Notes under the pieces: model-generated
What the model saw: only the letters and a program-made list of their open reading frames with translations
Told to the model about the DNA's origin: nothing
The model's database searches: none
Position numbers and translations under genes: made by a program
From: Nannocystis pusilla
GTDB taxonomy: Bacteria; Myxococcota_A; Polyangia; Nannocystales; Nannocystaceae
Length of the DNA stretch: 64,000 nucleotides
Reading direction: 5' to 3'
Assembly (NCBI RefSeq): GCF_026626665.1
Contig: NZ_JAPNKE010000002.1
Coordinates: forward strand, 1,165,204 to 1,229,203
Shown: one piece after another, positions 8,596 to 63,910 of the stretch
Numbering within the stretch: the first letter of the stretch is position 1
How the letters are laid out: each line of letters starts with the position of its first letter

Positions 8596-8700
8596 TCCGG
8601 GAGCCCGCGTTCGTCCTTCGATGATCCGAAGGGCATGTCCTCGCGGACATGCCCTTCAGACCATGGTCTGCGGGGCATGTCCGAGAGGACATGCCCGAAG
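8596..8700. repeat. Cluster of CATG-centred palindromic hairpins (REP/BIME-like) between convergent genes
   Basis: Reads ccttcgATGATCcgaagg, then GGGCATGTCC-tcgc-GGACATGCCC, ACCATGGTC, then GGGGCATGTCC-gagag-GACATGCCC. These are perfect 10-bp stems with 4-5 nt loops. Confidence 0.65.
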
Positions 8701-17781: not shown

Positions 17782-19391
17782 GTGAGCGCGGGCGGCGGCG
17801 AGACCGGGGCGGAGCGGCGAGGTGAGGACCGGCCGGTGCTGCTGCGCGTCGAGGGGCTGACCATCGCGCGGCCCGACGGCGCGCCGCTGGTCGAGGCGCT
17901 GGCGCTGACGCTGCGGGCCGGCGAGACCGCGGCGGTGTTCGGCGCCAGCGGGGCCGGCAAGTCGACGCTGATGGCGGCGCTGCACGACGCGGACGGGCTG
18001 CGAGCGCGCGGGTTCGCGGTCCGGGCGGCCACGTTCACGGCGGCCGGCGGGGTCGGGATCGTGCCGCAGCGCGGGGCGCTGCTCGACCACCTGAGCGCCG
18101 CCGGTAACATCGCCCTGGCGCTGCGCAACGCCGAGCAGCCGGTGTCCGCCACTCCGCAGGAGGTCGAGCGCTGGATCGCCGCGCTCGACCTGCCGCGGCG
18201 CTGGAGCGACGAGGCGCAGGCGGTCGCGCACGTCAGCGGCGGCGAGGCGCAGCGCCTGGCCGTCGCGCGCACGCTGGCGGGCGGTCGGCGGATCTTGCTG
18301 CTCGACGAGCCCTCGGTCGGGCTCGATCCGCTCCGCGTCGATCGCCTGGCAGCGGCCCTGCGCGGGCAGATCGCCGGGCAGAGCGCGGCCGCGCTGGCGA
18401 TCACCCACGACCTCGAGTTCGCGGCCGGCTTCGCCGATCGCTTCCTCTACCTCGACGCGGCCGCGGGACGCCTGGTCGAGCTGCCGATCGCGCGCAGCGA
18501 GACGGCGGCGGCGACGGTCGCGGCGCTCGGGGCGGCGCTGCGCGAGCTGCTGGCCAAAGAGACAGGTCAGGCGGGCGGGCGATCGCGGCGGCGCCTGGGG
18601 GCGCGGCTGCGAGCTGTCCTCGGGGACATGTTGGCGCCGTTCGCGGTGCTGGTCCGGGCCCTCGCGGCCGCTCCGGCGGCGCTGGCCCGCCCGCGCGACT
18701 TCGCCGAGGTCGCGCGGGTGACCTTCGCGCAGGGCCTGTGGCGCCCGCTCGGCTTCATCGCCGCGGTGTCGCTGCTGGTCGGCTTCACCCTGCTGTACAT
18801 CTTCCACCGCGCGTTCTCGGGCGGCGGGGTGCCGGTGCGGCCGGACAAGATCTTCGCGCTGATCGGGTCGATGCACGTGCTGGCCCTGGCGCCGCCGCTG
18901 TCAGCGATCCTGTTCGCGGCGACGTCGGGCAGCGCGGTCGCGGCCTGGCTCGGCGGGATGTCGCTGACGCGCCAGACGGCGGCGCTGCGCGGGCTCGGGA
19001 TCGCCGAGGCGCGCTACTTGTGGCTGCCGGCGGTGCTCGGGCTGGCGCTGGCGTACGTGGTGCTGGCGGGGGTGTTCACCGGCGGGATGGTGCTCGGCGG
19101 GCTGCTCTACTTGAAGCTGCAGGTACCGGCGCTCGCCGACCCGTGGCTGGTCGTCACCGCCGACTTGCTCGATCCGCCGGCCGCGCGCGCCGTTCCGCGC
19201 GCGCGCTGGTGCTGGTCGCGCTCTACGCCGGCGGCATCGCGGCGGACGCGGTGGCCAAGGGGTCGAGCGACAAGGCCAGCGCCGACGCCGTGACCGCGGC
19301 GATGGTCCGCAGCGTGATGGCCTGTACGCTGTGGGTGGTGGCGCTCGAGCTGGCGTCGCTGGTCGTGCTGTATGGCGCTCGCGGAGGATAA
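17782..19391 (+). CDS. ABC transporter ATP-binding/permease fusion (MlaF/MlaE-like), C-terminal frameshift at about 19195
   Basis: Walker A GASGAGKST, signature VSGGEAQRL, Walker B LLLDEPSVGLD and ITHD. This is followed, with no stop, by a MlaE-like permease. Its last helix (LVLVALYAGGIAADAV...) continues in the adjacent frame. Confidence 0.6.
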
Positions 19392-21216
19392 GTGGCGGCT
19401 CGCGTCGATGGCTGGTCTGGCCGGCCTGGCGCTGGCGGGCGCGCTGCTGGCCGCCGGGCGCGGGGCGCTGATCGAGGCGGCGGCGGTGGAGCCGTTCCGC
19501 GTCGAGGTCGCAAGCCCGCACGCGCCGGCGGCCGACGGGCGCTGGGCGGGGCGCGTGGTCCCGCCGGAGCTGGCCGCGCGGGTGGTGGTGCGGGTCGACG
19601 GCGAGATCCGCGGCGGGCCTGAAGGACATGCGCAAAAGGACATGTCCGCGGCGCGCGATGATTCCGGAGGACATGCTCTCGAGGCCATGTCCAGAGTTGC
19701 CGAGGTTGACGGGCATGGCGCCGGGACGAACGGTCGCGGTCCTGAAGGACATGTTTACGAGAACATGTTCGAGGGGACACTTTCGGTCGCGCTGGGCGAC
19801 GCGCCGGGGCTGCGGCTGATCGAGGTCGAGCTGCCGCGGCAGGGGGGTGCGGAGGTGGCGACCGACGCGGCGCTGGTCGGGCCGTTCCGCGCGCGCTACG
19901 ACGACTCGCCGGGCTGCGGCGCGGGGGTGCGGGTGGCGGCGAGGGCGATCGATCGGCTGGTGCTGCCGCCGCTGCGCGACAAGCTGCTGGCGGCGGCGCC
20001 GTCGATCGGGCTGCTCGGGCCGGGGACGACGCTCGAGGAGGCGAGCGTGACGCTGCGGGGCGACGCGCTGTGGTTCCGCGTGGCGCTGGCCGGCGAGCAC
20101 CGGATCGCGGTGTCCGGCGCGCTGGAGGTGCGGGTGGCCGGGCCGCGCCAGCTCGGCGTGCGCCTGGCCTCGCTCGGGCCGGTCGAGTTCACGGGGACGT
20201 TGCGCACGCGAGCGACGCTCGGGGCGGCCGGGCTGGGGGCGATCGTGACGGGGCCGCTGGCGCCGCTCGGGGCGCTGGCCGGCTACGCGCTGGCCGACGG
20301 CTACATCGACCGACGCGCGCGGCAGGAGGTCGAGACGCAGCTGACGGCGGCCCTGGCGGTGGCCAGCGCGATCCCGCTGATCCCCGAGCGCGCCGAGCTG
20401 ATCGTCGGCGAGCCGCGCTCGCGGGCGACGCTGGCGTTCTGCGCGGTGGCCATCGAGTCGGGCGGGATCGCGGCGCACCTGTCCGTACGGCCAGATAAAC
20501 CTGACCCGAAGACCAGCCAGGAGGCGAGCCGGGTGCGCACGCGGCTGGCGGCGATCCCGGGGCCGGCGCGGCACGGGCTCGCGCTGCCGCCGCTGCGGCC
20601 GGTGGCGCCGACGGCCGACGCGGAGGTCGAGCTGAGCCTCGACACGGTCGACGCGCTGCTCGACGCGTGGACCGCCAACGGGCTGCTCGGCGACCTGATG
20701 GGGCGGGCGCAGTGGGTCGAGCGGGTCGACGAGGCGCTCGGCGAGTGGACGACGCTCGGCCTGGCGGAGATCGAGGTGCGGCTGCCGCCGTCGCTGTCCC
20801 CGGGGACAGGTGACGGCTGGGCGCTGACCGTGGCGGGGCTGCGGCTGGGGCTGACCGGCAGCGAGGGCGAGGACCCCGGGGAGGTGCTGGTGGCCGGACG
20901 CGGGTTCGTGCGCCCGCACTACGACGCGCGGCGCGGGCGGCTGGCGCTGGCGGGGACGATCGACCGCCTGCGCCTGTCGTGCGCCCGTGCAGGGGCGCTG
21001 TGGCCGTGCTTCGCCGCGCTGCTCGAGATGGGCGACGTCGAGGCGAGGCTCGATGCGCTGCTGGCTCCCGGCGCCGCGGGGCTGCCGGGGATCGAGGTGC
21101 GGGCGCTGCTGCGCGACGGCACGCGAGCGCTGCGCGACGGGGGGCTGGAGCTGGCCGACCTGGCGATCAGCTACCCGCAGCCGGGCGTGCTGCGCGTGGC
21201 GGCCGAGGTGCGCTGA
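19372..21216 (+). CDS. Hypothetical membrane-anchored protein. The reading frame spans an embedded repeat cluster; the true start may be downstream at about 19762.
   Basis: 614-aa ORF with an N-terminal hydrophobic helix. Residues about 83-143 are encoded by GGACATG-type repeat units. The remainder is Ala/Leu-rich with no recognised domain. Confidence 0.35.
   Translation: MALAEDKWRLASMAGLAGLALAGALLAAGRGALIEAAAVEPFRVEVASPHAPAADGRWAGRVVPPELAARVVVRVDGEIRGGPEGHAQKDMSAARDDSGGHALEAMSRVAEVDGHGAGTNGRGPEGHVYENMFEGTLSVALGDAPGLRLIEVELPRQGGAEVATDAALVGPFRARYDDSPGCGAGVRVAARAIDRLVLPPLRDKLLAAAPSIGLLGPGTTLEEASVTLRGDALWFRVALAGEHRIAVSGALEVRVAGPRQLGVRLASLGPVEFTGTLRTRATLGAAGLGAIVTGPLAPLGALAGYALADGYIDRRARQEVETQLTAALAVASAIPLIPERAELIVGEPRSRATLAFCAVAIESGGIAAHLSVRPDKPDPKTSQEASRVRTRLAAIPGPARHGLALPPLRPVAPTADAEVELSLDTVDALLDAWTANGLLGDLMGRAQWVERVDEALGEWTTLGLAEIEVRLPPSLSPGTGDGWALTVAGLRLGLTGSEGEDPGEVLVAGRGFVRPHYDARRGRLALAGTIDRLRLSCARAGALWPCFAALLEMGDVEARLDALLAPGAAGLPGIEVRALLRDGTRALRDGGLELADLAISYPQPGVLRVAAEVR
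19615..19800. repeat. CATG-palindrome repeat cluster (at least 8 units) lying in-frame inside the ORF 19372..21216
   Basis: Units gaaggacatgcgcaaaaggacatgtcc, ggaggacatgctctcgaggccatgtcc, gggcatggc, gaaggacatgtttacgagaacatgttcgagggg. Confidence 0.65.
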
Positions 21217-21264
21217 GACACGGCGGGGATGCGCGGCCAAAGTGCTGCGGGCGGCGGCCGCGGT

Positions 21265-21325
21265 GCGCCGAGACATGCCTGCCCGAACGGACATGTTCTA
21301 TCGAGCATGCTCGTTCGGACATCCG
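21265..21325. repeat. CATG-palindrome units between convergent genes
   Basis: gagacatgcctgcccgaacggacatgttctatcgagcatgctcgttcggacatcc, with the inverted pair cgaacggacatg...catgctcgttcg. Confidence 0.55.
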
Positions 21326-21334
21326 CTTCGCCGA

Positions 21335-21724
21335 TCAATCTTGCCGGGGCGGATCCTTGCGGTCGAAGCGCTCGCGGGCGCGGGCGATCTCGCCGCGGTG
21401 GTCGCCGGCCCAGGCGGCGAGGGCCTGCACCGGGTCGAGCAGGGTGCGGCCGAGCTCGGTCAGCTCGTAGTCGACGCGCGGCGGGACGGAAGGGGTGACG
21501 GTGCGGGTGACGAGGCCGTCGCGCTCGAGGCCGCGCAGCGTCAGCGTCAGCATGCGCTGCGAGATGCCCTCGATCGATCGTCGCAGCTCGTTGAAGCGCA
21601 GCGGTCGGTCGCTCAGCATGCTGACCACGAGGACGCTCCACTTGTCGCCGACGCGGCTCAGGACGTCGCGCACCGCCACACAGGTCTCTTGCTGATGCAT
21701 GTCGCGGCCTCGGTTCTCTTTCAT
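21335..21724 (-). CDS. HxlR family transcriptional regulator
   Basis: [49 protein letters not shown] is the canonical HxlR winged-helix signature. It is the C-terminal part of a longer spurious ORF. Confidence 0.75.
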
Positions 21725-21786
21725 AACCCAGGCCGCGAGCCGGATGAAGCCGGTCTCGCGTCTTGCTCGCGGCGAGGGGTGCGCCG

Positions 21787-22125
21787 TCATCGCCGGCCAG
21801 GCTCGCCGCCCGCATGGGAGACACCCGGCTGGCCGGCCGCCAGCAATTCCTGGACTGCGGCCGGGTCGGTGTAAGGGATGGAGGCGCCACAACCGGCGCA
21901 CACGCGCAGGGACATCGGCGCGCGCAGGATGTCCGACTCCGAGGGGCCGCTGAGGAAGCCACGCTCCGGGACGTGGGCGCAGGTCTGGACGGGCCGGGCG
22001 TACCAGCCGTTGGCGCCGTAATCGAGGCTGCGCCACGGCGAGAGGAAGTAGAACTCTCGCCCGTGGCAGATCGAGCACGGGGTGGTGGCGAGCGCGGACG
22101 ACGGCAGGGGCGAGGTGGAGGTCAT
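21787..22125 (-). CDS. Cys-rich small protein, possibly a GFA (glutathione-dependent formaldehyde-activating enzyme / CENP-V-like) zinc-binding domain
   Basis: Motifs [10 protein letters not shown] and [11 protein letters not shown] resemble the second and third Cys clusters of GFA. The first cluster is missing, so the N-terminus may be mis-started. Confidence 0.35.
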
Positions 22126-22226
22126 GTCGAGGGAGTATGCCGCGCCGGCGCCGCGGCGGCATCGTGGAGACCGTCGCAGGCGCTCGCTGGTGGGTCGGGA
22201 GCGATCGCGGGGCGGCGCGCTGGTGA

Positions 22227-22292
22227 GCCTGTCCCCGGGGACAGGTGACGGGAGATGTCCTTCGAGACATCTCGGAGGCGGGGAGCCCGTGC
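22227..22292. repeat. Palindrome CTGTCCCCGGGGACAG plus an inverted pair GGAGATGTCCttcgaGACATCTCG
   Basis: Read directly. The 23-mer ctgtccccggggacaggtgacgg is identical to a copy at 20794-20816 inside a CDS. Confidence 0.6.
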
Positions 22293-22303
22293 GGGCGTCG
22301 AGT

Positions 22304-23578
22304 TCAGCGGCGTCGCGGGCGCTTGGGCGCGCTGCCGGGCAGCTCGGCCGCGGCAGCGACTGCGTCGAGGCGGCGGCCGATGTCGCTGATGGTGGCAGGG
22401 GCGACCTCGACCGCCCGCGCTTCGCGAGGCCAGCGCGCGAGGGCGGCCCGCACCTCGTCGACGATCGCCCGCGCGCTCTTCTCGTCGATCGAGGCGCGAC
22501 GGGCCAGGCGCAGCATGTGTTGCCAGGTCGGGCGCCGGCCCTCGCCGTCGAGCGTCATCGTGTGCTCGCCGCCGGGACCGGCGACGAAGTTGAGGTCGTA
22601 GGCGGGCGACAGGCGCCAGCCGCCCTCGCGGTCCATCAGGAAGGAGAAGTTCTTGCCGTGGTCGTCGCGGTTGTGCGCGAGCACGTTGAACACCATCTGG
22701 CGGAAGGCCCGGCGCACGTCGGGCTGCGCGCGCGTGAGGTGCATGGTGGCGCGCAGCAGCATGTCGTAGTCGAGGTTCGGCTCGCGGAAGTCGACGTCGA
22801 GCAGGCCGGCGAGGGTGTGGACGTGGATGCGCGCGCCGGCCTCGTCGCGGTCGAACCGGCGCACGCCGAAGAAGCGCTGACCGCTGCTGGCCACGAACAG
22901 CCGCGTGTCGGGCACCTCGAGCCCCGCGTGGCGCGCGAGGCGGGCGTAGACGTGCTCGATCGCCCCGGCGTCGCGCTGCTCGTCGCCGGCCCAGAATTTG
23001 ATCAGCCACGGCTCGTGCTCGGGCGGCGGCATGGCTGTCCCATAGACCATGCTGTCCCCACGGACAGCCACCAGCACCTTCGGCCGCGCGCCGCCCGGGG
23101 AGCCGCCGGCGTGCTGCAGCACCGGCAAGAGCTCCGACGGGTGGCCGCGATAGACGTCCTCGGCGGCCGCGGCGAGCTTGTCGAGGGCGATCGAGCGATC
23201 GGCGACGGGCTCGGCGTCGGTGCACGGGTGAAAGGTCAGGGCGCCCATGGTGCGCGCGCCGAGGTGCGCCAGGCGATCGAGCGGCGACAGCTGCTCGGGC
23301 ACGAGGCCGCGCTTGCGGAACAGCCGATCCATCAGCAAGAGGCCCCAGCCGTCGGGCAGGGCGTCGGCGAACACGCCGTGCAGGCGCGCGGCGGGAGCTT
23401 TGAAGATGCCTGGCTGAAGGGCCAGCTTGAGCGGCGAGATCGAGGGACCGCGGGCCAACCAGCTCGAAGCGTATTCGAAGTAGATCGTGCGCTCGTGCAG
23501 CAGCAGGTGGCCGACGACCTCGCTGTCGTCGGCGGCGCGCTCGATCCGGACCTCGAGCTTGCGGGTGACCGGATTCAT
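22304..23578 (-). CDS. hipA: HipA family type II toxin (Ser/Thr kinase)
   Basis: HipA N-terminal coupling domain and C-terminal kinase-like core over 424 aa. Overlaps the upstream HTH gene by 4 nt. Confidence 0.8.
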   Translation of the reverse strand: MNPVTRKLEVRIERAADDSEVVGHLLLHERTIYFEYASSWLARGPSISPLKLALQPGIFKAPAARLHGVFADALPDGWGLLLMDRLFRKRGLVPEQLSPLDRLAHLGARTMGALTFHPCTDAEPVADRSIALDKLAAAAEDVYRGHPSELLPVLQHAGGSPGGARPKVLVAVRGDSMVYGTAMPPPEHEPWLIKFWAGDEQRDAGAIEHVYARLARHAGLEVPDTRLFVASSGQRFFGVRRFDRDEAGARIHVHTLAGLLDVDFREPNLDYDMLLRATMHLTRAQPDVRRAFRQMVFNVLAHNRDDHGKNFSFLMDREGGWRLSPAYDLNFVAGPGGEHTMTLDGEGRRPTWQHMLRLARRASIDEKSARAIVDEVRAALARWPREARAVEVAPATISDIGRRLDAVAAAAELPGSAPKRPRRR

Positions 23579-23868
23579 CGCCGGCCTCGCTGGCGCGCCG
23601 GTGCCTGGCTGCGCTGCTCGAGCTCGGCCAGCGAGCGCGCCGGCGGCGGGGCGAACACCGCCTCGAACTGCTCGAGGCAGCCGAGGGCGAGCGCCAGCTT
23701 GAGCAGGTTGTCGAGCGCGATCTGGCCGGTCGTCTCGAAGCGCTTGACGGTGCCGGCGCTGATGCCGGCTCGCTCGGCCAGCGTCTCGCGCTTCCAGTCG
23801 CGGGCGAGTCGCAGCGCCTTCATGCGCCCGGCCAGGCGCTGCGCGACCTCCTCGGCGGTGAACAGCAC
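23575..23868 (-). CDS. hipB: HipB-like XRE-family HTH antitoxin
   Basis: 97 aa with an LRLARDWKRETLAERAGISAGTVKRFE helix-turn-helix. Immediately upstream of hipA in the same orientation. Confidence 0.7.
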   Translation of the reverse strand: MLFTAEEVAQRLAGRMKALRLARDWKRETLAERAGISAGTVKRFETTGQIALDNLLKLALALGCLEQFEAVFAPPPARSLAELEQRSQAPARQRGRR

Positions 23869-23940
23869 AAGGGGTATTATGTGCGCTTTTATGGCGTTCG
23901 CAACGGTATTAAAGATATAATATAGGCTTTTATGTCAGCG
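23869..23940 (-). promoter_or_regulatory. AT-rich promoter/operator island upstream of hipBA, with a direct repeat GCTTTTATG x2
   Basis: About 70 bp at roughly 35% GC in a 72% GC genome. Contains tattatgtgcgcttttatggcg ... ggtattaaagatataatataggcttttatg. Confidence 0.4.
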
Positions 23941-23949
23941 GCGGAGCGC

Positions 23950-23992
23950 GACAAAGCCCGCCGCCTCGAGCGAGGGGGCGGGCTTGGCCCGA
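23950..23992 (-). terminator. Putative stem-loop terminator downstream of pntB
   Basis: AAGCCCGCC...GGCGGGCTT is a perfect 9-bp stem just 3' of the pntB stop. No clear U-tract. Confidence 0.35.
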
Positions 23993-24005
23993 GGGCGATC
24001 GGGGC

Positions 24006-25418
24006 TTAGCCGCGGAGCTTGCCGAGCAGGGCGTCGACGTTCTTCTTGGCGTCGCCGTAGAGCATGCGGGTGTTCTCTTTGTAGAAGAGCGGGTTGTCGA
24101 CGCCGGCGTAGCCGACGCCCTTGCCGCGCTTCATGACGATCACCGTCTTGGCCTTCCACACCTCGATCACGGGCATGCCGGCGATCGGGCTGGAGGGGTC
24201 GTCCTGGGCGCCGGGGTTGACGATGTCGTTGGCGCCGATGACCAGCACGAGGTCCGTGTTCGGGCAGTCGTGGTTGATCTCGTCCATCTCGAGGACGATG
24301 TCGTAGGGCACGTTGGCCTCGGCCAGCAGCACGTTCATGTGGCCGGGCAGGCGGCCCGCGACCGGGTGGATGGCGAAGCGGAAGTTGGCGCCGGCCTTGC
24401 GCAGGATCTTGGCGATCTCGGCGACCGGGTGCTGCGCCTGCGCGACCGCCATGCCGTAGCCGGGGACGACCATGATGTTGCGAGCGGAGCGCATCAGCTC
24501 GACGGTGCCGTCGAGGTCGATCTCGCGGCACTCGCCGACCGGCTGGGCCGCCGCGCCCTTCGGCGCCGGGGCGCCGCCGTCGGAGCCGAAGCCGCCGGCG
24601 ATGACGCTGAGGAACGAGCGGTTCATCGCCCGGCACATGATGTACGAGAGGATCGCGCCGCTGCTGCCGACCAGCGCGCCGGTGACGATCAGGAGGTCGT
24701 TGCTCAGCATGAAGCCGGCGGCCGCGGCGGCCCAGCCGGAGTAGCTGTTGAGCATCGACACCACGACGGGCATGTCGGCGCCGCCGATGGCCATGACCAT
24801 GTGCACGCCGATCACGCTGGCGATGCCGGTCATGATGAGCAGCGGGGTGAGGCCGTGGTGCGGGTCGGCCAGGAACTGCCAGCCGAGGAACACGCAGCCG
24901 AGCACCATCGCCAGGTTGAGCAGGTGGCGGCCGGGCAGGGTCAGCGGCTTGCCGCCGATGCTGCCGCGCAGCTTGAGGAAGGCGATGATCGAGCCGGTGA
25001 AGGTGATCGCGCCGATGAACACGCCGATGTAGACCTCGACGTTGTGCACCGTGTCGGCGTGGCTCGTGGCGCCGAGGTACGACGACAGGCCGACCAGCAC
25101 CGCGGCGGCGCCGACGAAGCTGTGCAGCACCGCGACGAGCTCGGGCATCGCCGTCATGGCGACGCGCGCGGCCAGGACGGCGCCGATCAGCGCCCCGGGG
25201 ACGATGGCGGCGGCGAGGATGGCGAAGCCGCTGCCGCTGATGTTCATCAGCTTGTCGGCGTTCATGCCGATGGCGGTGGCGACCACCGCGAGCAGCATGC
25301 CGATCATGCCGTAGAGGTTGCCGCGCCGGGCGGTGTCCTGGCGCGAGAGGCCGCCGAGGCTGAGGATGAACAGCGCGCTGGCGGCGATGTAGATGACGGT
25401 GAGGAGGCTGAACGACAT
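24006..25418 (-). CDS. pntB: NAD(P) transhydrogenase subunit beta
   Basis: Full-length PntB: N-terminal TM helices plus the C-terminal NADP(H)-binding dIII domain ([20 protein letters not shown]). Confidence 0.9.
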
Positions 25419-34010: not shown

Positions 34011-34082
34011 TGGGGCGTCGGCAAGTGGTAAGCCAGCGGTTTTTGGTTCCGCCATTCGTAGGTTCGAATCCTACCGCCCCAA
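34011..34082 (+). tRNA. tRNA-Gln (anticodon UUG)
   Basis: TGGGGCG-TC-GGCAAGTGGTAAGCC-A-GCGGT-TTTTGGT-TCCGC-CATTC-GTAGG-TTCGAAT-CCTAC-CGCCCCA-A. Near-identical in layout to E. coli tRNA-Gln. Confidence 0.8.
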
Positions 34083-44662: not shown

Positions 44663-44770
44663 GGCATGTCCTGAAGGGCATGCCCGAAAGGGCATGTCGA
44701 TACGGCCATGCTCGAAAGGGCATGCTCGAAAGGGCCTGTGCCGAAGGACAGGCTGTGCCCGCGGAGGGGC
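44650..44770. repeat. CATG-palindrome cluster arranged as 5 direct 14-15-nt units (GGGCATGYYCGAAAG)
   Basis: catgtcctgaag gGGCATGCCCgaaag GGCATGTCgatac GGCCATGCTCgaaag GGCATGCTCgaaag GGCCTGTGCCgaaGGACAGGCTGTGCC. Confidence 0.6.
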
Positions 44771-49584: not shown

Positions 49585-49672
49585 CCTGAGAGACATGCAG
49601 GTTCGGACATGCCCGGACGGGCATGTCGTACGCGACATGCCCGCGAGGACATGTCCTTGAGGCTAGGGCCGG
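49585..49672. repeat. CATG-palindrome cluster between convergent genes
   Basis: gacatgcaggttcGGACATGCCCggacGGGCATGTCgtacgcGACATGCCCgcgagGACATGTCCttgagg. Confidence 0.65.
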
Positions 49673-54344: not shown

Positions 54345-54425
54345 GGCGCGCTGTCCTATCAGACATGTCCTTTTATAATTGTCTGGAAGGACATGTCGGA
54401 GGGAGCATGTCCGAAAGGACCGATA
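54345..54425. repeat. CATG-palindrome cluster with an embedded AT-rich segment (TTTTATAATTG)
   Basis: ctgtcctatcaGACATGTCCttttataattgtctggaaGGACATGTCggagggaGCATGTCCgaaaGGACC. Confidence 0.6.
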
Positions 54426-55818: not shown

Positions 55819-56868
55819 TCAGGCGACGGGGATCGGCGGCGGGATGATGCTGTCAGGCTGGCCGCCGGCGATCCGTGGGCGGTTGGTCTCGATCTGCTGG
55901 TGCGGGGTGCCGAGGGCGATCGTGCTGGCCGCGTCGAGGCGGGCGAGCTGGGCCGGTGCGAGCTCGAGGGTGAGCGCGGCGAGGGCGGCGTCGAGGTGTT
56001 GGCGGGTGCGCGGGCCGAGGATGGGGATCCGCGCGGTCGTGGAGCGAGCGGCGTGGGCCAGCGACCAGGCGAGGGCGACCTGGACCGGGGCGACGCCGGC
56101 CTCGGCGGCGACTGCGACCACGGCGTCGAGGATGGCGGTCTCGCGCGCGGTCTTCTCGGTGTGGACGAGCATGCCGAGGCCGGTGAGGCGGCCCTCGTCG
56201 CTCGTGCGGTACTTGCCGGTGAGGAAGCCGCCGCCGAGCGGCGACCACAGGGCCGCGCCGAGCCCCAGCGCCTCGGCCATCGGCAGCAGCTCGCGCTCGC
56301 CGGTGCGCTCGACCAAGCTGTGCTCGATCTGCAGGCCCGCGAGCGGGGTCCAGCCGCGCAGCTCGGCGATCGCGTCGCCTCGCGCGACCCGCCAGGCGGG
56401 GAAGTTCGACAGGCCGCCGTGGAGGATCTTGCCGGCCCGCGCGAGGTCGTCGAGGCCGCGCACGATCTCCTCGATCGGGGTCAGGCCGTCGGGGAAGTGG
56501 ACCCAATACAGCTCGATGCGGTCGGTCCTGAGCCGGCGCAGGCTGGCCTCGAGCGCGGCGATCATGGTCTTGCGGCTGTTGCCGGTGGCATGCAGGCCGC
56601 CCCCGACGCCGAGGGTGTACTTGGTGGCGACCACGAAGCGGTCGCGCTCGGCCGCGAGGAACTCGCCGAGGAGCTGCTCCGACTGGCCGACCTGGTAGGT
56701 GTCGGCGGTGTCGATGAAATTGCCGCCCGCCTCGGCGTAAGCGTCGAAGATCCGCCGCGCCTCGGCGGGCTCGCTGCCGTGGCCCCAACCAGTGCCGAAG
56801 TTGCCGGTGCCGAGGGCGAGCTCGGAGACGCGTAGGCCTGTGCGACGACCGAATGTCCTGTACCGCAT
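55819..56868 (-). CDS. Aldo/keto reductase
   Basis: LGTGNFG, GGNFIDTADTY and a (beta/alpha)8 pattern with LSNF. Confidence 0.85.
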   Translation of the reverse strand: MRYRTFGRRTGLRVSELALGTGNFGTGWGHGSEPAEARRIFDAYAEAGGNFIDTADTYQVGQSEQLLGEFLAAERDRFVVATKYTLGVGGGLHATGNSRKTMIAALEASLRRLRTDRIELYWVHFPDGLTPIEEIVRGLDDLARAGKILHGGLSNFPAWRVARGDAIAELRGWTPLAGLQIEHSLVERTGERELLPMAEALGLGAALWSPLGGGFLTGKYRTSDEGRLTGLGMLVHTEKTARETAILDAVVAVAAEAGVAPVQVALAWSLAHAARSTTARIPILGPRTRQHLDAALAALTLELAPAQLARLDAASTIALGTPHQQIETNRPRIAGGQPDSIIPPPIPVA

Positions 56869-56987
56869 CGTGTGCTCCTGAGGTGGTTTTTAGATTATGG
56901 ACGTCATATGGAATCGGCAAGGGGATGGCGCGTGAGTTCGGTAGAGTCGACCAGGGCGGATTCGCGCGGCGATGGCTTGCGATTCGA

Positions 56988-57012
56988 GGATCATTGGTTC
57001 AATGATTGAACG
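56988..57012. promoter_or_regulatory. Candidate operator: palindrome ATCATTG-gtt-CAATGAT overlapping TTCAAT-g-ATTGAA, at the 5' end of the MFS-HxlR unit
   Basis: ggatcattggttcaatgattgaacgc read directly. An AT-rich stretch (ggtttttagattatggacgtcatatgg) lies 80 bp upstream. Confidence 0.3.
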
Positions 57013-58378
57013 CATGGAGATGCGCCTGTCCCCGTTGGTCGTGGCCAGCCTGGCCGTGTTCGCGGTGTTCCTCGACACGACGGTGCTGTTCGTGGCGTTC
57101 CCGTCGATCGCGGCGACCTTCCCGGCGGTGCCGACGGCCGAGCTGTCGTGGGTGCTGAACGCGTACACGATCGTGTTCGCGGCCGCGCTGGTGCCGTTCG
57201 GGCGGCTCGCCGATCGCTGGGGACACCGGGCGACGTTCCTGGCCGGGTCGATCGCGTTCACTCTGGCGTCGCTGCTGTGCGCGGCGGCGCCGACCCCGGG
57301 GCTGCTGGTGGCCGCGCGCGTGCTGCAGGCGGCCGGCGGCGCGGCGCTGGTGCCCTCGTCGCTGGCGCTGGTGATGCGGGCGACGCCGCGCGAGAAGCTG
57401 CCGGTGGCGCTGGCGGTGTGGGGCGCGACGGGGGCGGTGGCGGGGGCGGTCGGGCCGACGCTCGGCGCGGCGCTGATCGAGGCGTGTGGCTGGCGCTGGG
57501 TGTTCGCCATCAACCTGCCGGTCGGGCTGGTGACCGTGCTGCTCGGGCGTCGGCGACTGGCCGAGTCGCGCGACCCCGACAGCGTGCTGCCGGCGCCGCT
57601 CGGGGTGGTGCTACTGGTGATCGCGGCGGTGCTGATCACTCTGGCGCTGGTGCTCGGCGAGTCGTGGGGCTGGACGTCGCAGCGGACCGCGGCGACTCTG
57701 GTGGCCGGCCTGGCGACGCTGGCGGCGTTCGTGATCCATCAGGCGCGCACGCGGGCGCCGACGATCGATCTGTCGCTGTTCGCGGCGAGCAACTTCCGCT
57801 GGGCCAACGCGGCGACGCTGACGTTCGGCGCTGCGTTCACCGCGATGTTCCTGGCCAGCGTCCTGTTTCTCACCGCGGTGTGGGACTGGTCGATCCTCGC
57901 GGCGGGCTTCGGCGTCGCGCCCGGGCCGCTGCTGGTGGCAGCGCTGTCGCCACGGTTCGGGCGGCTGGCGGCGCGGATCGGCCAACGGCCGCTCTTGATC
58001 GCCGGTGGGCTGTCGTTCGCGCTCGGGGGGCTGTGGCGCCTGCGGATGCTGTCGGCCGAGGTCGACTACGCGGTCGACTACTTGCCGTCGATGCTGCTGA
58101 CGGGGACGGGGGTGGCGCTGTGCCTGCCGCAGCTGTCGAGCGTGGTCGGCCAGGCGCTGCCGGCCAATCGCCTCGGGGTCGGCGGGGCGGTCCACCAGGC
58201 GCTGCGCCAGTTCGCGGGGACGCTCGGGGTGGCGCTGGCGATCGGGCTGACCGCCGGGGCGAGCGGGCCGGCCGACGCGCTGGCGCGGTTCGACCGGGTG
58301 TGGTGGGTGATGATCGCCGGCGGGCTGGCGACGGCGCTGTGCTCGCTGCCCCTTCGGACAGGTCCGGCCCGGGCGTGA
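57002..58378 (+). CDS. MFS transporter, DHA2 (EmrB/QacA-like, 14-TM) family
   Basis: FLDTTVLFVAFPSIAATF, the GRLADRWGHR motif and about 14 predicted helices. The start is ambiguous among ATGs at 57002, 57014 and 57020. Confidence 0.8.
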   Translation: MIERMEMRLSPLVVASLAVFAVFLDTTVLFVAFPSIAATFPAVPTAELSWVLNAYTIVFAAALVPFGRLADRWGHRATFLAGSIAFTLASLLCAAAPTPGLLVAARVLQAAGGAALVPSSLALVMRATPREKLPVALAVWGATGAVAGAVGPTLGAALIEACGWRWVFAINLPVGLVTVLLGRRRLAESRDPDSVLPAPLGVVLLVIAAVLITLALVLGESWGWTSQRTAATLVAGLATLAAFVIHQARTRAPTIDLSLFAASNFRWANAATLTFGAAFTAMFLASVLFLTAVWDWSILAAGFGVAPGPLLVAALSPRFGRLAARIGQRPLLIAGGLSFALGGLWRLRMLSAEVDYAVDYLPSMLLTGTGVALCLPQLSSVVGQALPANRLGVGGAVHQALRQFAGTLGVALAIGLTAGASGPADALARFDRVWWVMIAGGLATALCSLPLRTGPARA

Positions 58379-58847: not shown

Positions 58848-58925
58848 GAGGGCATGCTCGTACGAGCATGTCCTCGAGGGCATGAAGGATGGGGCATGTC
58901 GGATGGGACATGCGCGAGAGGTCAG
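58846..58925. repeat. CATG-palindrome cluster between convergent genes
   Basis: gaGGGCATGCTCgtacGAGCATGTCCtcgaGGGCATGaaggatgGGGCATGTCggatgGGACATGCgcgagagg. Confidence 0.65.
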
Positions 58926-60802: not shown

Positions 60803-61588
60803 TCAGGCCTTGCGGGGGCGCGAGCGGCGGGAGCGGGCGGGCTTGGCCGGGGGCGCAGGGGGCTCGGGCTCGGGCTCGTCTGCCTCTTCGGGCATGTCCT
60901 CGAGGTCCGGTGCTTCCGAACCTGTCGCTTCGGACATGTCCTCGGAGCCCTCCTCGGCCTCGGCCTCGGCTTCGGCCTCGGGCGGGTCGGACGGGGCCGC
61001 CTCGAGGCCGCTGTTGCGGAGGGTGCGGGGCGGCAGCAGCTCGGGCTCGCTGACGACCTTCTTGGCCAGGAAGATGGCGGCGTCGATCTGGGAGAAGCTG
61101 CGGGCGCGGTAGAACTGGAGCGCGCGCTTGTTGTTGGCGGCGACCTCGAGGACGAGGTGGGTGCAGCCGCGCACGCGGGCGAGGTGCTCGAGCTGCTCGA
61201 TGACGAAGCTGCCGATCCCGCGGCCCTGGAAGTCGGGGTGGATGGCGATCTCCTCGACGAACAGCGGGCGCATGTCCCGGCTCTCGAAGTAGCGCTCGTT
61301 GATCCAATTGTCGGAGCCGATGACCTCGTAGGCGCACTCGGCGTAGCCGACGATCACCGGGGCGTCGCCCTCGTGGATCTCGAACAGCAGCTGCTCGATG
61401 CCCTCCTCCTCGTAGATCTCGAGGAAGCGGGTCTTGGTGCGGGGGCGCTGGTACTCGACGGTCTCGCGGTTGACCGAGCGGAACACGCGCTTGAGGAACT
61501 CCCACACCTTGTTGAGGTCGCGGCGGTGGATCCGGCGGACACGGATGGTCGGCTCCGTGACGGCGGGCGCGGGCTTGCGGGAGGCCAC
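60803..61588 (-). CDS. GNAT family N-acetyltransferase with an acidic C-terminal tail partly encoded by CATG-palindrome units
   Basis: GNAT core (IAIHPDFQGRGIGSFVI, NKRALQFYRARSF). The tail reads ...EEGSEDMSEATGSEAPDLEDMPEEADEPEPEPPAPPAKPARSRRSRPRKA. The DNA at 60885-60955 reads GGGCATGTCCtcgaggtccggtgcttccgaacctgtcgcttcGGACATGTCC. Confidence 0.7.
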   Translation of the reverse strand: MASRKPAPAVTEPTIRVRRIHRRDLNKVWEFLKRVFRSVNRETVEYQRPRTKTRFLEIYEEEGIEQLLFEIHEGDAPVIVGYAECAYEVIGSDNWINERYFESRDMRPLFVEEIAIHPDFQGRGIGSFVIEQLEHLARVRGCTHLVLEVAANNKRALQFYRARSFSQIDAAIFLAKKVVSEPELLPPRTLRNSGLEAAPSDPPEAEAEAEAEEGSEDMSEATGSEAPDLEDMPEEADEPEPEPPAPPAKPARSRRSRPRKA

Positions 61589-61663: not shown

Positions 61664-63484
61664 ATGCGTCCCCGCGCCGCTGCGTCCGCCGCCGAGCCTG
61701 CGCGCCGGCGTGGCCGACGTCGCAGCGCGGGCCTGCGCCGGGTCGGGCTCGGGTGCGTGGCCGTCGCGCTCGCTTGCGGACCGGGCGAGCAGAAGGCGCA
61801 GAAGGTCGAGGCGAACCCGAACATGCCCGACCGCGTGCAGGCGCCTGCGCCCGCGCCGCGCCGGCCGGAGGTCCACGAGTGCCCCGAGGCGCTCCGCGAG
61901 CCGGAGCAGGTCGACCGCGTGATCGGCTCGGCTTGCAAGTCGGTGACGGTCCACCCGGGCTACCGCGTCGAGAACGGGTCGCTGACGATCGAGGCGGGCG
62001 TGACCCTGCAGTTCATGCCCGACGCCGAGCTGGCGGTCGGCTTCGAGCGCCCGGCGACGCTGCACGTGCGCGGCACGCCCGAGTCGCCGGTCCGCTTCAC
62101 GGCCGCGGGCGAGCAGGCCAAGCCCGGGGCGTGGAAGGGGATCGCGCTGTACGACCACGCCGACGGCTCGGAGATCGCCGGGCTCGTGCTCGAGTTCGCC
62201 GGCACCGACCTGCGCGGGGCGATCTACGTGCAGGCGACCGACGTGAAGATCGACGGCTCGACGGTGCGCGACAGCCAGAACGTGGCGGTCCACGTGACGT
62301 CGAAGGGCCACGTCAGCAGCTTCAAGGGCAACCGGCTCGAGCGCGTGAGCTCGCCGGCGCTGCTGCTGCCGGCCCGCTCGGCCGGGTCGGTGACGCCCGA
62401 CAACACGTTCCCGCCCGACTCGGTGATCCACGTGCTCGGCGGGACGCTCCGCGAGCGCGCCCGCTGGGACGTGCCGAAGGTGCCGTTCGTGATCGGCGGG
62501 GTGATCGAGATCGAGGGCCCCGACGACAAGCACGAGGCGATGCTCGAGCTGGCCCCGGGGACAGTCCTGAAGTTCGACGACGACGCGTACTTCACGGTCG
62601 GCTACGACCACCCGGCGGCGCTCATCGCCGAGGCGGCGGGCAAGGAGCCGATCGTGCTGACGTCGGCGACGCGCCAGACGTCGCACGCGTGGCGCGGGGT
62701 CAACCTCTACCGCTCGGCCACCGCGAGCTTCAGCAACGTGGTGTTCGAGTACGGCGGCCAGCGCTCCGACCGCGGGGTGGTCTACGCCAACAACGAGGCG
62801 CGCCTCAGCGCGAAGGGCTGCACGTTCCGCGACAACGGCGGCGGCGTGACGCTCCAGGGCGCGAACGTCCGCCTCGGCGAGTTCCGCGACAACACGTTCG
62901 AGCGCTCGCACCCGGCCTTCGACGTGAGCCCGCAGCTGTTCGGGATGATCCCGCCCGAGAACAAGCTCGACGCGGCGACGACGGTCCAGGTCGAGGGCGG
63001 CGAGGTCGGCAAGGACGCAGTGTGGAACGACTTCGGGGTGCCCATCGAGGTCAAGCGCCCGGTCTCGGTCGACAACCAGGCGACGCTGACGATCCGCGCC
63101 GGCGCCAAGCTGCGCGTCCACGACGGCTTCTCGCTCGGGGTCGGCGAGTTCGGCGGCGGCTCGCTGCGCATCGAGGGCACGGCCGAGCGCCCGGTGCAGA
63201 TCTTCGGGACCACCGACCGCCGCGGCACGTGGGACGCGATCCGCCTGTACGAGAAGGCCCGCGGCAACCTGTTCGAGCACGTGCAGCTGCGCAACGCCGG
63301 CGGCGAGGGGGCCATCAACGTCGCCATCGGCGTCGACGCGGTCGTCCGCGACGTGTCCTGCGTGCGCTGCTTCAGCCCGACGCTGACGTGGGCCTGCGGC
63401 TCGCGCGTGACGTCCGAGCGCGTCGCAGGCGGGGCCGAGACGCCGGCGGCGACGCTGCCCCCGTTCGGCTGCGACCCGGCGTGA
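61664..63484 (+). CDS. Lipoprotein with right-handed parallel beta-helix repeats (pectate-lyase-fold surface protein)
   Basis: Signal peptide plus lipobox LGCVAVALACG. Repeated beta-helix-like segments follow (GAIYVQATDVKIDGSTVRDS, NVAVHVTSKG, GVTLQGANVRLGEFRDNTF). ATG at 61664 is in frame with the long track ORF. Confidence 0.55.
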   Translation: MRPRAAASAAEPARRRGRRRSAGLRRVGLGCVAVALACGPGEQKAQKVEANPNMPDRVQAPAPAPRRPEVHECPEALREPEQVDRVIGSACKSVTVHPGYRVENGSLTIEAGVTLQFMPDAELAVGFERPATLHVRGTPESPVRFTAAGEQAKPGAWKGIALYDHADGSEIAGLVLEFAGTDLRGAIYVQATDVKIDGSTVRDSQNVAVHVTSKGHVSSFKGNRLERVSSPALLLPARSAGSVTPDNTFPPDSVIHVLGGTLRERARWDVPKVPFVIGGVIEIEGPDDKHEAMLELAPGTVLKFDDDAYFTVGYDHPAALIAEAAGKEPIVLTSATRQTSHAWRGVNLYRSATASFSNVVFEYGGQRSDRGVVYANNEARLSAKGCTFRDNGGGVTLQGANVRLGEFRDNTFERSHPAFDVSPQLFGMIPPENKLDAATTVQVEGGEVGKDAVWNDFGVPIEVKRPVSVDNQATLTIRAGAKLRVHDGFSLGVGEFGGGSLRIEGTAERPVQIFGTTDRRGTWDAIRLYEKARGNLFEHVQLRNAGGEGAINVAIGVDAVVRDVSCVRCFSPTLTWACGSRVTSERVAGGAETPAATLPPFGCDPA

Positions 63485-63689
63485 GGCCGCGCGCCGGGGA
63501 TGGCCCGCTCTTGAGGGTGCGGGCCATCGCTGTCGCTATCTTGATGCGCTCGGAAGGTTCGCGGCGAGCTCCGCGGAGCATGGGCGGCGGTGAAATAAGG
63601 GGTAACTTTTGTCCCGCAAGGACTTCGAGCAGCCTACAAAGGTAAATATATGAACCTTTGTTCCGGCCGGGAGGTCCGCGGTGACGATG

Positions 63690-63910
63690 GGCACAGGGCC
63701 CGCTCGTCCTCAGCATGAGGCCCGGTCCGACGGCGGACGGTGCGGCATGTCTCATTGGACATGTCATCAAGAACATGCTCGATAGAGCATGCGCTCATGA
63801 GCATGTTCCTCGAGTCATGGCCTGGAGGGCAGGGGCGTCCGGGGCCGGCGCGCCTCATGAGCATGTTCTTCGAGTCAGGGCCGGGAGGGCATGTGCGTCC
63901 GGGGCCCGGC
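63690..63910. repeat. CATG-palindrome cluster plus an about 62-bp direct repeat x2 (ctcatgagcatgttc(c/t)tcgagtca(t/g)ggcc(t/g)ggagggca(g/t)g(g/t)gcgtccggggcc(g/c)ggcgcg)
   Basis: gGCATGTCtcattGGACATGTCatcaaGAACATGCTCgataGAGCATGCgctcatGAGCATGTTC... read directly. Confidence 0.6.

What the first reader, a model, noticed from the sequence alone, without database searches (positions are those of the whole stretch)
22304..23940. hipBA toxin-antitoxin module with a very AT-rich promoter island in a 72% GC genome
A HipA-family kinase toxin (424 aa) lies downstream of a HipB-like HTH protein with a 4-nt overlap. Just upstream is a ~70-bp segment at about 35% GC containing the direct repeat GCTTTTATG x2 and TATA-like runs. 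These are probable HipB operator and promoter sites. The block 21335-23940 (HxlR, a GFA-like protein, hipBA) is bracketed by palindrome units at 21265-21325 and 22227-22292, which hints at mobile or accessory origin.
Basis: partly seen in the sequence, partly recalled or inferred. Interest (0 to 1): 0.5.

Follow-up and report, generated by a model that had tools for sequence, protein, structure and literature searches.

The report
Ordinary chromosomal hipBA toxin-antitoxin operon
This is a standard two-gene HipB/HipA toxin-antitoxin operon with its own AT-rich promoter, inherited vertically next to the pntAB genes in Nannocystis (a myxobacterium); it is not a recently acquired islet.

Summary
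The core observation holds. hipB (23575-23868, minus strand, 97 aa, Cro/C1 HTH) overlaps hipA (22304-23578, 424 aa) by 4 nt. HipA has the N-terminal and C-terminal HipA domains and all kinase motifs that could be checked. The 67 bp upstream of hipB are 36% GC, the most AT-rich stretch of the 64-kb window. They hold the only sigma-70-like promoter in 2 kb, placed so that the hipB mRNA would have almost no leader.

The islet idea is refuted at genus level.
- The order pntA-pntB-hipB-hipA-hxlR is the same in N. punicea, N. pusilla and five metagenomic relatives.
- GC, GC3 and dS match the neighbouring genes.
- No integrase, tRNA or flanking repeat is present.

- The GCTTTTATG x2 repeat is real but specific to this genome.
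- The better conserved operator candidates are a promoter-proximal TAATAC-type box, found family-wide, and an imperfect palindrome that is perfect in more distant orthologues.
- The "palindrome units" do not bracket hipBA. One belongs to a genome-wide repeat family built on GRRCATGYYC.
- The "GFA-like" label has no support.

Verdict: a new member of a known kind, of low interest.

The parts
23575..23868 (-). hipB antitoxin gene, 97 aa, GTG start, Cro/C1-type HTH repressor
   Evidence: ORF; Pfam HTH_3 3e-08. Orthologues have ATG at exactly this codon. Five of six nucleotide differences from N. punicea in the first 16 codons are synonymous (read). dN/dS is 0.08-0.18.
22304..23578 (-). hipA toxin gene, 424 aa Ser/Thr kinase. 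Gly-rich loop G158-K167 with Ser160, Lys194, catalytic N303-R-D305-D-H-G-K-N310, Mg-binding Y327-D328.
   Evidence: Pfam HipA_C 1e-51 and Couple_hipA 2.8e-17. Alignment to E. coli HipA structures at E = 4e-11 pairs S150, D309 and D332 with Ser160, Asp305 and Asp328. The motifs are invariant or nearly so in 18 homologues of 48-91% identity. dN/dS is 0.18-0.27.
23869..23935 (-). AT-rich promoter/operator island, 35.8% GC
   Evidence: Lowest-GC segment of the window. AT-rich in all eight orthologous loci.
23876..23903 (-). Sigma-70-like promoter TTGCGA-16 nt-CATAAT. The -10 ends 7 nt before the GTG and there is no Shine-Dalgarno sequence, so a leaderless or near-leaderless hipB mRNA is predicted.
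   Evidence: Only promoter-like hit in 22100-24100; 0.1 expected from shuffles. The arrangement TA(T/A)A(C/A)T + ACC(C/T)CTT + start codon is conserved in the window, L002, L003, L168 and L170.
23873..23879 (-). Proximal TAATACC box (-11 from the start codon). It overlaps the -10 hexamer and is the best conserved operator candidate.
   Evidence: Repeat D2. TA(A/C)TAC is kept in L002, L003, L168 and L170. TAATAC/ATACTA is 23-30x enriched upstream of 53 distant hipB genes, clustering next to the start codon and at -50..-41.
23905..23911 (-). Distal TAATACC box (-43), 32 bp from the proximal one
   Evidence: D2. CATAAT-type boxes are also 32 bp apart in L003. The position matches the -50..-41 peak of TAATAC in distant homologues, but the sequence is only loosely conserved inside the Nannocystis clade.
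23886..23914 (-). Imperfect palindrome CTTTAAT-N15-ATAAAAG around the -35 hexamer; second operator candidate
   Evidence: It scores 6/8 and is not significant on its own (464 of 500 shuffles do as well). The equivalent position in L171 (75% HipA identity) and L004 (67%) carries a perfect ACCCTTTATC-N13-GATAAAGGGT, matched in only 5-6 of 500 shuffles.
23885..23893 (-).
23926..23934 (-). Distal copy of the 9-mer CATAAAAGC
   Evidence: Not conserved in orthologues.
23954..23985 (-). Terminator hairpin of pntB, which separates pntAB from the hipBA promoter
   Evidence: 15-nt arms, 93% complementary; fold. Conserved in six loci, with both-sided compensatory changes at 5 of 15 pairs.
22228..22273 (-). 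Two hairpins downstream of the hipA stop (CCTGTCCCCGGGGACAGG and GAGATGTCTCGAAGGACATCTC). Likely end of the operon; a variable segment.
   Evidence: Fold. Present in the window and N. punicea only; absent from L168, L003 and L170.
21787..22125 (-). Neighbour, not part of the module: Cys-rich 112-aa ORF of unknown family
   Evidence: No Pfam, NCBIfam or PADLOC hit. Present in L002 and L168; mostly deleted in N. pusilla and L170. dN/dS 0.35.
21335..21700 (-). Neighbour, not part of the module: HxlR-family regulator
   Evidence: Pfam HxlR 1.7e-27; syntenic in L002, L003, L168 and L170.
21280..21321 (.). Hairpin between the convergent genes for the 614-aa protein and hxlR. It is a member of the dispersed GRRCATGYYC repeat family.
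   Evidence: Comparable units sit in the same spacer in L002 and L003.

Best explanation
A canonical, chromosomally fixed hipBA type II toxin-antitoxin operon of a Nannocystis species.

Shown:
- A bicistronic hipB-hipA pair with a 4-nt overlap.
- A HipA with N-subdomain 1 and intact Gly-rich loop (with its adjacent Ser160), catalytic and Mg-binding motifs.
- An upstream HTH antitoxin.
- A conserved terminator that isolates the operon from pntAB.
- A strongly AT-rich promoter region.
- Vertical inheritance under purifying selection.

Inferred from E. coli, Shewanella and Caulobacter HipBA:
- HipB dimers, alone and with HipA, bind boxes that overlap the -35/-10/start region and repress the operon.
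- When HipB is degraded, free HipA phosphorylates an aminoacyl-tRNA synthetase (GltX, TrpS or LysS in characterised systems; unknown here). This stalls translation and triggers the stringent response and dormancy.
- Autophosphorylation of Ser160 then switches HipA off.

The spacing of the promoter implies that hipB is translated from a leaderless or near-leaderless mRNA. The repressor box would then cover the -10 hexamer, the transcription start and the start codon together.
For: - Domains and motifs.
- Closest named relatives are annotated 'type II toxin-antitoxin system HipA family toxin' in N. punicea (91%) and N. pusilla (85%).
- Gene overlap.
- Promoter. AT island.
- The terminator upstream shows covariation.
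- Synteny in eight loci.
- GC 0.725/0.741 and GC3 0.93/0.94 against window means of 0.713 and 0.934.
- dS 0.28-0.36, like hxlR (0.32-0.39) and the 614-aa gene (0.24-0.28); dN/dS 0.08-0.27.
- Conserved promoter-proximal box and family-wide TAATAC enrichment.
- Perfect palindromes at the equivalent site in L171 and L004.
- Known operator logic of HipB: PMC4150777. Family criteria: PMC8262856.
Against: - No experiment supports kinase activity, toxicity, the target or HipB binding.
- The operator is not resolved. There are three overlapping candidates, and none resembles the four-fold palindromes of E. coli or Shewanella.
- The leaderless model rests on a consensus scan only. By analogy with distant homologues, where TAATAC is fused to a TATAAT at about -45, the real promoter could be the distal box, giving a leader of about 35 nt.
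- HipB scores far below NCBIfam's HipB equivalog cut-off (21.9 against 79 bits), and HipA is only distantly related to E. coli HipA (E = 4e-11).
Confidence: 0.85

Rival explanations
1. The block is a recently acquired mobile or accessory islet delimited by palindromic units.
For: - TA modules as a class are mobile: 884 plasmid records carry HipA relatives.
- A 67%-identical homologue sits in an unrelated context.
- The nearest outgroup, a Nannocystaceae MAG with pntB, has no hipBA, hxlR or 614-aa gene nearby.
- The side downstream of hipA is variable.
Against: - Gene order is the same in N. punicea, N. pusilla and metagenomic relatives. pntB-hipBA adjacency holds down to 75% HipA identity.
- Composition, GC3 and dS match the neighbours.
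- No plasmid or phage relative exceeds about 45% identity.
- No tRNA, integrase or direct-repeat boundaries are present.
- The two palindromes differ in sequence. One belongs to a family found at 16 separate sites in the window, and they flank hxlR plus the small ORF, not hipBA.
Confidence: 0.07
2. The two GCTTTTATG/CATAAAAGC copies are the HipB operator half-sites.
For: The exact 9-mer occurs twice, 41 bp apart (about four helical turns), and only here in 64 kb. It is unlikely by chance (3 of 500 shuffles). The proximal copy lies between -35 and -10. An A-rich AAAAG(C) core recurs at the proximal position in L002, L003 and L170.
Against: - The repeats are direct rather than inverted, whereas the two HipB operators described in the paper consulted are palindromes (PMC4150777).
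- The longest exact direct repeat in each of the other seven orthologous upstream regions examined, N. punicea and N. pusilla included, is only 5-6 nt, which is not significant.
- The proximal copy can equally be read as the right arm of the palindrome that is perfect in L171 and L004.
Confidence: 0.25
3. The promoter is at the distal TAATACC/TTTAAT box, so hipB has a leader of about 35 nt without a Shine-Dalgarno sequence. The proximal box then acts on translation initiation and is not a -10 element.
For: In 53 distant hipBA loci the TAATAC box at -50..-41 is fused to a consensus TATAAT, and a second box abuts the ATG. The window has boxes at -43 and -11.
Against: No acceptable -35 lies 16-18 nt upstream of the distal box, and the scan finds only the proximal promoter. 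The distal box is poorly conserved within the Nannocystis clade, while the proximal -10-like hexamer with its fixed 7-nt distance to the start codon is conserved.
Confidence: 0.25
4. The module works mainly as an abortive-infection phage defence and not as a persistence or stress module.
For: TA systems in general can protect against phage. HipA gives weak PADLOC hits to candidate system PDC-M03A (E = 0.002-0.005).
Against: The hits are marginal. There are no neighbouring defence genes: the context is pntAB, hxlR and an ABC/MlaE cluster. The locus is stable and vertically inherited, not a variable defence island.
Confidence: 0.1

Closest known systems
E. coli K-12 HipBA (HipA kinase of GltX; HipB repressor; structures 3DNT, 3TPD, 2WIU, 4YG7)
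   Same: - hipB-hipA order with overlapping genes.
- A long HipA with N-subdomain 1.
- An aligned autophosphorylation Ser (S150 / Ser160), catalytic Asp (D309 / Asp305) and Mg-binding Asp (D332 / Asp328).
- A Cro/C1 HTH antitoxin.
- Operator candidates overlapping the promoter.
   Different: - Only a distant sequence relationship (E = 4e-11 for HipA; HipB 21.9 bits against the 79-bit equivalog cut-off).
- The region aligned to the activation loop is shorter.
- No palindrome like the four-fold GTGTA-N6-TACAC of Shewanella (PMC4150777) or the longer-spaced E. coli operator is evident in the hipB upstream sequence as read. No pattern search was run.
- A leaderless hipB mRNA is predicted.
- The target is unknown.
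Shewanella oneidensis HipBA (PMC4150777)
   Same: A chromosomal hipBA whose HipB binds palindromic operators upstream of, and even inside, hipB. HipA is autophosphorylated on the Ser next to the Gly-rich loop.
   Different: The Shewanella operator GTGTA-N6-TACAC is repeated four times. Here there is at most one imperfect palindrome with a 15-nt spacer, plus two TAATACC boxes.
Caulobacter crescentus HipBA1/HipBA2 (clade I 'classical' HipA, PMC8262856, PMC7029023)
   Same: Chromosomal hipBA modules of a high-GC bacterium that encode a long HipA with the four kinase motifs.
   Different: Relationship not measured here because no sequence was available to the tools. The best alphaproteobacterial plasmid relatives are about 43-45% identical.
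HipBST (HipT/HipS) and HipH/YjjJ
   Same: The same kinase core (HipA_C). Legionella HipT matches residues 209-383 at E = 2e-06.
   Different: HipT lacks N-subdomain 1 and needs HipS. HipH carries its own N-terminal HTH. Here the N-subdomain is part of HipA and the HTH is a separate upstream gene (the YjjJ model scores 44.8 against a 401-bit cut-off).

Membership tests
HipA kinase family (criteria of Gerdes et al. 2021, PMC8262856) | HipA_C kinase core domain | tested here: met
   Pfam PF07804 at 1e-51, covering residues 160-383 against profile positions 2-213 of 213
HipA kinase family (criteria of Gerdes et al. 2021, PMC8262856) | N-subdomain 1 (distinguishes long HipA from HipT, HipG, HipI and others) | tested here: met
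   Pfam PF13657 Couple_hipA at 2.8e-17, residues 19-116
HipA kinase family (criteria of Gerdes et al. 2021, PMC8262856) | Gly-rich loop with an adjacent Ser that can be autophosphorylated | tested here: met
   G158-G-S160-P-G-G-A-R-P-K167 aligns with E. coli S150-(V/L)AGAQEK. G158, G159 and G163-K167 are invariant and S160 is at least 90% conserved in 18 homologues.
HipA kinase family (criteria of Gerdes et al. 2021, PMC8262856) | Activation loop | tested here: inconclusive
   The region after K194 (WAGDEQRDAG) aligns to the E. coli loop only with gaps and is several residues shorter
HipA kinase family (criteria of Gerdes et al. 2021, PMC8262856) | Catalytic motif (D-x-H-x-K-N) | tested here: met
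   N303-R-D305-D-H-G-K-N310 aligns to E. coli TDGHAKN (D309). It is invariant in 18 homologues.
HipA kinase family (criteria of Gerdes et al. 2021, PMC8262856) | Mg2+-binding motif | tested here: met
   Y327-D328-L329 aligns to E. coli Y-D332-I and is invariant
HipA kinase family (criteria of Gerdes et al. 2021, PMC8262856) | Adjacent antitoxin gene encoding a DNA-binding protein | tested here: met
   hipB lies immediately upstream with a 4-nt overlap and matches HTH_3, HTH_26 and HTH_31
Type II toxin-antitoxin system (functional definition) | The toxin arrests growth, the antitoxin neutralises it by direct binding, and the operon is autorepressed | not testable with these tools
   Needs expression, rescue and DNA-binding experiments
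HipB of the E. coli/Shewanella type | Equivalog-level sequence similarity to E. coli HipB | tested here: not met
   NF007271 scores 21.9 bits against a 79-bit cut-off. It is an HTH_3 protein whose closest solved relatives are uncharacterised regulators 4GHJ and 3VK0.
HipB of the E. coli/Shewanella type | Short palindromic operator repeated about four times upstream | tested here: not met
   The best inverted repeat in the 88-bp upstream region is 6/8 and not above chance (464 of 500 shuffles). Only related loci L171 and L004 have one perfect palindrome. Reference operators: PMC4150777.
HipH / YjjJ | N-terminal HTH fused to the kinase; passes the equivalog score | tested here: not met
   NF007297 scores 44.8 against 401 bits, and the N-terminus is Couple_hipA, not an HTH
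HipBST tripartite system | A short kinase lacking N-subdomain 1, plus a separate HipS gene | tested here: not met
   The N-subdomain is present in the 424-aa protein, and no third gene lies between hipB and hipA
Genomic islet / mobile element | Deviant composition or codon usage | tested here: not met
   hipA GC 0.725 and GC3 0.93; hipB 0.741 and 0.94. The 38 gene proxies of the window average 0.713 +/- 0.036 and 0.934 +/- 0.032.
Genomic islet / mobile element | Patchy presence among close relatives, or an empty site | tested here: not met
   Present at the same locus in all eight Nannocystis-clade sequences recovered. No empty site was seen, but the genome scan missed the other Nannocystis genomes.
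Genomic islet / mobile element | Integrase or transposase, tRNA target, matching terminal repeats | tested here: not met
   The nearest tRNA is at 34011-34082. No such Pfam family appears in the +/-10 kb of L002 or L003. The flanking palindromes differ in sequence and one lies inside the block.

The most novel reading that the evidence does not exclude
hipB is expressed from a leaderless mRNA, so a single HipB box (TAATACC, 23873-23879) would cover the -10 element, the transcription start and the start codon together. The same TA(A/C)TAC box, found next to the start codon and at about -45 in 53 distant hipBA loci from unrelated low-GC bacteria, would then be a conserved operator code for a large uncharacterised HipBA subfamily. 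That code differs from the E. coli and Shewanella palindromes.
Probability: 0.3. Interest if true: 0.3.

Novelty: new member of a known kind. Interest (0 to 1): 0.15.

Why it matters
It matters little beyond annotation. The result adds a well-delimited hipBA operon, with mapped promoter, terminator and candidate operators, to a myxobacterial genus for which I found no studies of toxin-antitoxin systems. It also shows that a striking AT-rich island in a 72% GC genome can be a conserved promoter and need not be a scar of horizontal transfer. The comparative hint of a shared TAATAC-type box across a wide HipBA subfamily could guide operator mapping in that subfamily.

Tried and rejected
- An exact-sequence look-up of HipA found nothing. 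The look-up of PntB found only a 5-kb Logan contig identical to the window, so the source genome itself is not in the collection.
It returned no Nannocystis genome, only relatives of 71% identity or less. This lost the planned empty-site test. The nearest outgroup, L008, shares neither flank, so it is uninformative.
These were reused for the family-wide motif count.
- GFA or any other family for the 112-aa ORF: no hit in Pfam at E = 10, NCBIfam or PADLOC.
- An RNA family in 21100-24100: none at E <= 1.
- Close relatives on plasmids or phages: none above about 45% identity.
- The inverted repeat in the window's own upstream region is not above chance. I therefore do not claim it alone as the operator.
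- A literature search for a described Nannocystis palindromic repeat found nothing relevant.
- A literature search on leaderless transcripts in Myxococcus was returned as a list only; I opened none of the papers.
Full report
**What is there.**
The window is 72.0% GC. Its closest named relatives are Nannocystis punicea and N. pusilla, in the Myxococcota.
- On the minus strand, a 97-aa ORF (23575-23868, GTG start) is followed by a 424-aa ORF (22304-23578). The two overlap in the sequence ATGA.
- Pfam assigns HTH_3 (3e-08) to the first ORF, and Couple_hipA (2.8e-17) plus HipA_C (1e-51) to the second.
- NCBIfam gives only sub-threshold hits to the E. coli HipB and YjjJ equivalogs. This is therefore a distant member of the family, not an orthologue of the E. 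coli proteins.

**Kinase motifs.**
- phmmer against PDB sequences aligns residues 31-330 to E. coli HipA at E = 4e-11.
- That alignment pairs the autophosphorylated Ser150, the catalytic Asp309 and the Mg-binding Asp332 with Ser160, Asp305 and Asp328.
- In an alignment of 18 homologues (48-91% identity), G158, G159, G163-K167, N303-N310 and Y327-L329 are invariant. S160 and K194 are at least 90% conserved.
- The stretch aligned to the activation loop is shorter and could not be judged.
- By the criteria of Gerdes et al. (PMC8262856) this is a long HipA kinase encoded by a hipBA-type module.

**The AT-rich island.**
- Positions 23869-23935 are 35.8% GC. This is the lowest-GC segment of the whole 64 kb at window sizes of 40, 60 and 70 bp.
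- On the gene strand the order is:
  - pntB stop;
  - a stable hairpin at 23985-23954, conserved in six loci with compensatory changes at 5 of 15 pairs;
  - CATAAAAGC (23934-23926);
  - CTTTAAT (23914-23908), overlapping TAATACC (23911-23905);
  - TTGCGA (23903-23898);
  - CATAAAAGC (23893-23885);
  - CATAAT (23881-23876), overlapping TAATACC (23879-23873);
  - ACCCCTT;
  - the GTG start codon.
- TTGCGA-16-CATAAT is the only sigma-70-like site in 22100-24100, where 0.1 is expected.
- Only 7 nt without a Shine-Dalgarno sequence separate the -10 hexamer from the start codon.
- The start codon is secure. Four orthologues have ATG at exactly that position, and five of the six differences from N. 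punicea in the first 16 codons are synonymous.
- I therefore infer a leaderless or near-leaderless hipB mRNA. This is inference, not observation.

**Which repeats matter.**
It occurs nowhere else in the window and is unlikely by chance (3 of 500 shuffles).
- It is specific to this genome. N. punicea, N. pusilla, L168 and L170 have only 5-6 nt direct repeats.
- Two other features are better supported by comparison.
  - First, L171 (75% HipA identity) and L004 (67%) carry a perfect palindrome ACCCTTTATC-N13-GATAAAGGGT, matched in only 5-6 of 500 shuffles. It sits at the position where the window has the degenerate CTTTAAT-N15-ATAAAAG around its -35.
  - Second, in 53 non-redundant hipB upstream regions from distant homologues (HipA 40-50% identical), TACTAT, ATACTA and TAATAC are 23-33 times enriched. 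They cluster at -50..-41, fused to TATAAT, and again right before the ATG.
- The window has TAATACC at -43 and -11. The proximal box is kept as TA(A/C)TAC throughout the Nannocystis clade.
- The operator is therefore unresolved. The promoter-proximal box is the strongest candidate and the 9-mer repeat the weakest.
- Neither matches the repeated palindrome reported for Shewanella (GTGTA-N6-TACAC) or the E. coli operator, whose spacer is 2 bp longer (PMC4150777).

**Islet or ancestral?**
- The order pntA-pntB-hipB-hipA-(small ORF)-hxlR-(about 570-aa protein)-ABC/MlaE is the same in N. punicea CP114040 and N. pusilla JAIRAU010000027. It is also the same in the metagenomic contigs L168/L169 and L170.
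- L171 and L172 (75-77% HipA identity) still have hipBA directly after pntB and its terminator.
- hipA and hipB have GC 0.725 and 0.741 and GC3 0.93 and 0.94. The window means are 0.713 +/- 0.036 and 0.934 +/- 0.032.
- Against the two named species, dS is 0.28-0.36 for hipBA, 0.32-0.39 for hxlR and 0.24-0.28 for the 614-aa gene. dN/dS for hipBA is 0.08-0.27.
- No plasmid or phage relative exceeds about 45% identity. The nearest tRNA is 10 kb away. No integrase is listed in the syntenic loci.
- The module is therefore ancestral to the genus and under purifying selection.
- Older acquisition cannot be excluded. A 67% homologue lies in a different context, and the nearest outgroup with pntB lacks the whole neighbourhood.

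**The palindromes.**
- The unit at 21280-21321 lies between the convergent genes for the 614-aa protein and hxlR.
- It belongs to a dispersed family built on the decamer GRRCATGYYC: 29 copies against 1.3 expected, often 14, 28 or 42 bp apart, mostly just 3' of genes.
They are shared only with N. punicea.
- The two units therefore do not bracket hipBA and do not mark a mobile element.
- The downstream side of hipA is nonetheless variable. The small Cys-rich ORF is present in the window, N. punicea and L168. It is largely deleted in N. pusilla and L170, and different genes take its place in L171.
- That ORF has no detectable family, so 'GFA-like' is unsupported.

**Verdict.**
This is a correctly spotted but ordinary hipBA operon. 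It is a new member of a known kind, with a conserved AT-rich promoter and an unresolved operator. The mobile-islet reading is rejected.

Noticed in passing
window-wide, e.g. 8631-8696, 21289-21312, 44665-44727, 49605-49656, 54364-54412, 58850-58873, 60890-60941, 63757-63868: The palindromic decamer GRRCATGYYC is heavily over-represented: 29 copies against 1.3 expected, and GGACATG 47 against 6.4. It forms short arrays with a 14-bp period (10-bp palindrome plus a 4-nt spacer), and neighbouring units pair into hairpins. Most arrays lie just 3' of genes or between convergent genes, like a REP-type element. Strict copies are sparser in the fetched N. punicea and N. pusilla loci (3-4 per 21 kb). 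No description was found in the literature search.
   Followed up: partly
window 19648-19770, inside the 614-aa ORF 19372-21216 (+): A 41-aa in-frame insertion (AARDDSGGHALEAMS...GPEGHVYENMF) made of GGACATG-type repeat units. It is absent from the orthologues in N. punicea, N. pusilla and L170. L170 has its own 11-aa insertion (REGHVAGDMAK) at almost the same site. The repeat family therefore seems to expand inside a coding sequence while keeping the frame, and local GC drops to 0.635.
   Followed up: partly
window 21787-22125 (-); L002:11461-11793; L168:7271-7603; remnant in L003:11316-11390: A Cys-rich 112-aa ORF (CSICHG...CAGCG) between hipA and hxlR with no match in Pfam (even at E = 10), NCBIfam or PADLOC. 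It is 68-83% conserved in two relatives with dN/dS 0.35. It is mostly deleted in N. pusilla and L170.
   Followed up: partly
L003:9351-9605 (N. pusilla, pntB-hipB spacer): The spacer is 517 bp, against about 137 bp in the window. It contains a 113-nt direct repeat (92% identical, 142 bp apart) that the window lacks. The AT-rich promoter itself is retained.
   Followed up: no
window 21200-21220 and 21255-21275: The last 21 nt of the 614-aa ORF, including its stop codon region (CGGCCGAGGTGCGCTGAGACA), are repeated 55 bp downstream at 90% identity. This looks like a small duplication next to the repeat-family hairpin.
   Followed up: no
L088-L167 (metagenomic hipBA loci, HipA 40-50% identical): Upstream regions of hipB in this subfamily share a stereotyped layout: TTGA..-17-TAATAC(T/C)ATAAT, often within a palindrome such as TAATACTA-N0-6-TAGTATTA. 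A second (T)AATAC(T) box abuts the ATG and there is no obvious Shine-Dalgarno sequence.
   Followed up: partly
window 63593-63662 and 56852-56921: The next most AT-rich spots of the window (40% and 47% GC over 70 bp). The second lies between divergent ORFs (55819-56889 minus strand, 56945-58378 plus strand) and may be another promoter island. The first lies after the ORF that ends at 63484.
   Followed up: no
L002:16642-17592 and L003:16142-17086 (syntenic block): A Ppx/GppA-family gene lies about 5 kb from hipBA in the conserved neighbourhood. The position is probably coincidental, but HipA toxicity in E. coli acts through (p)ppGpp.
   Followed up: no
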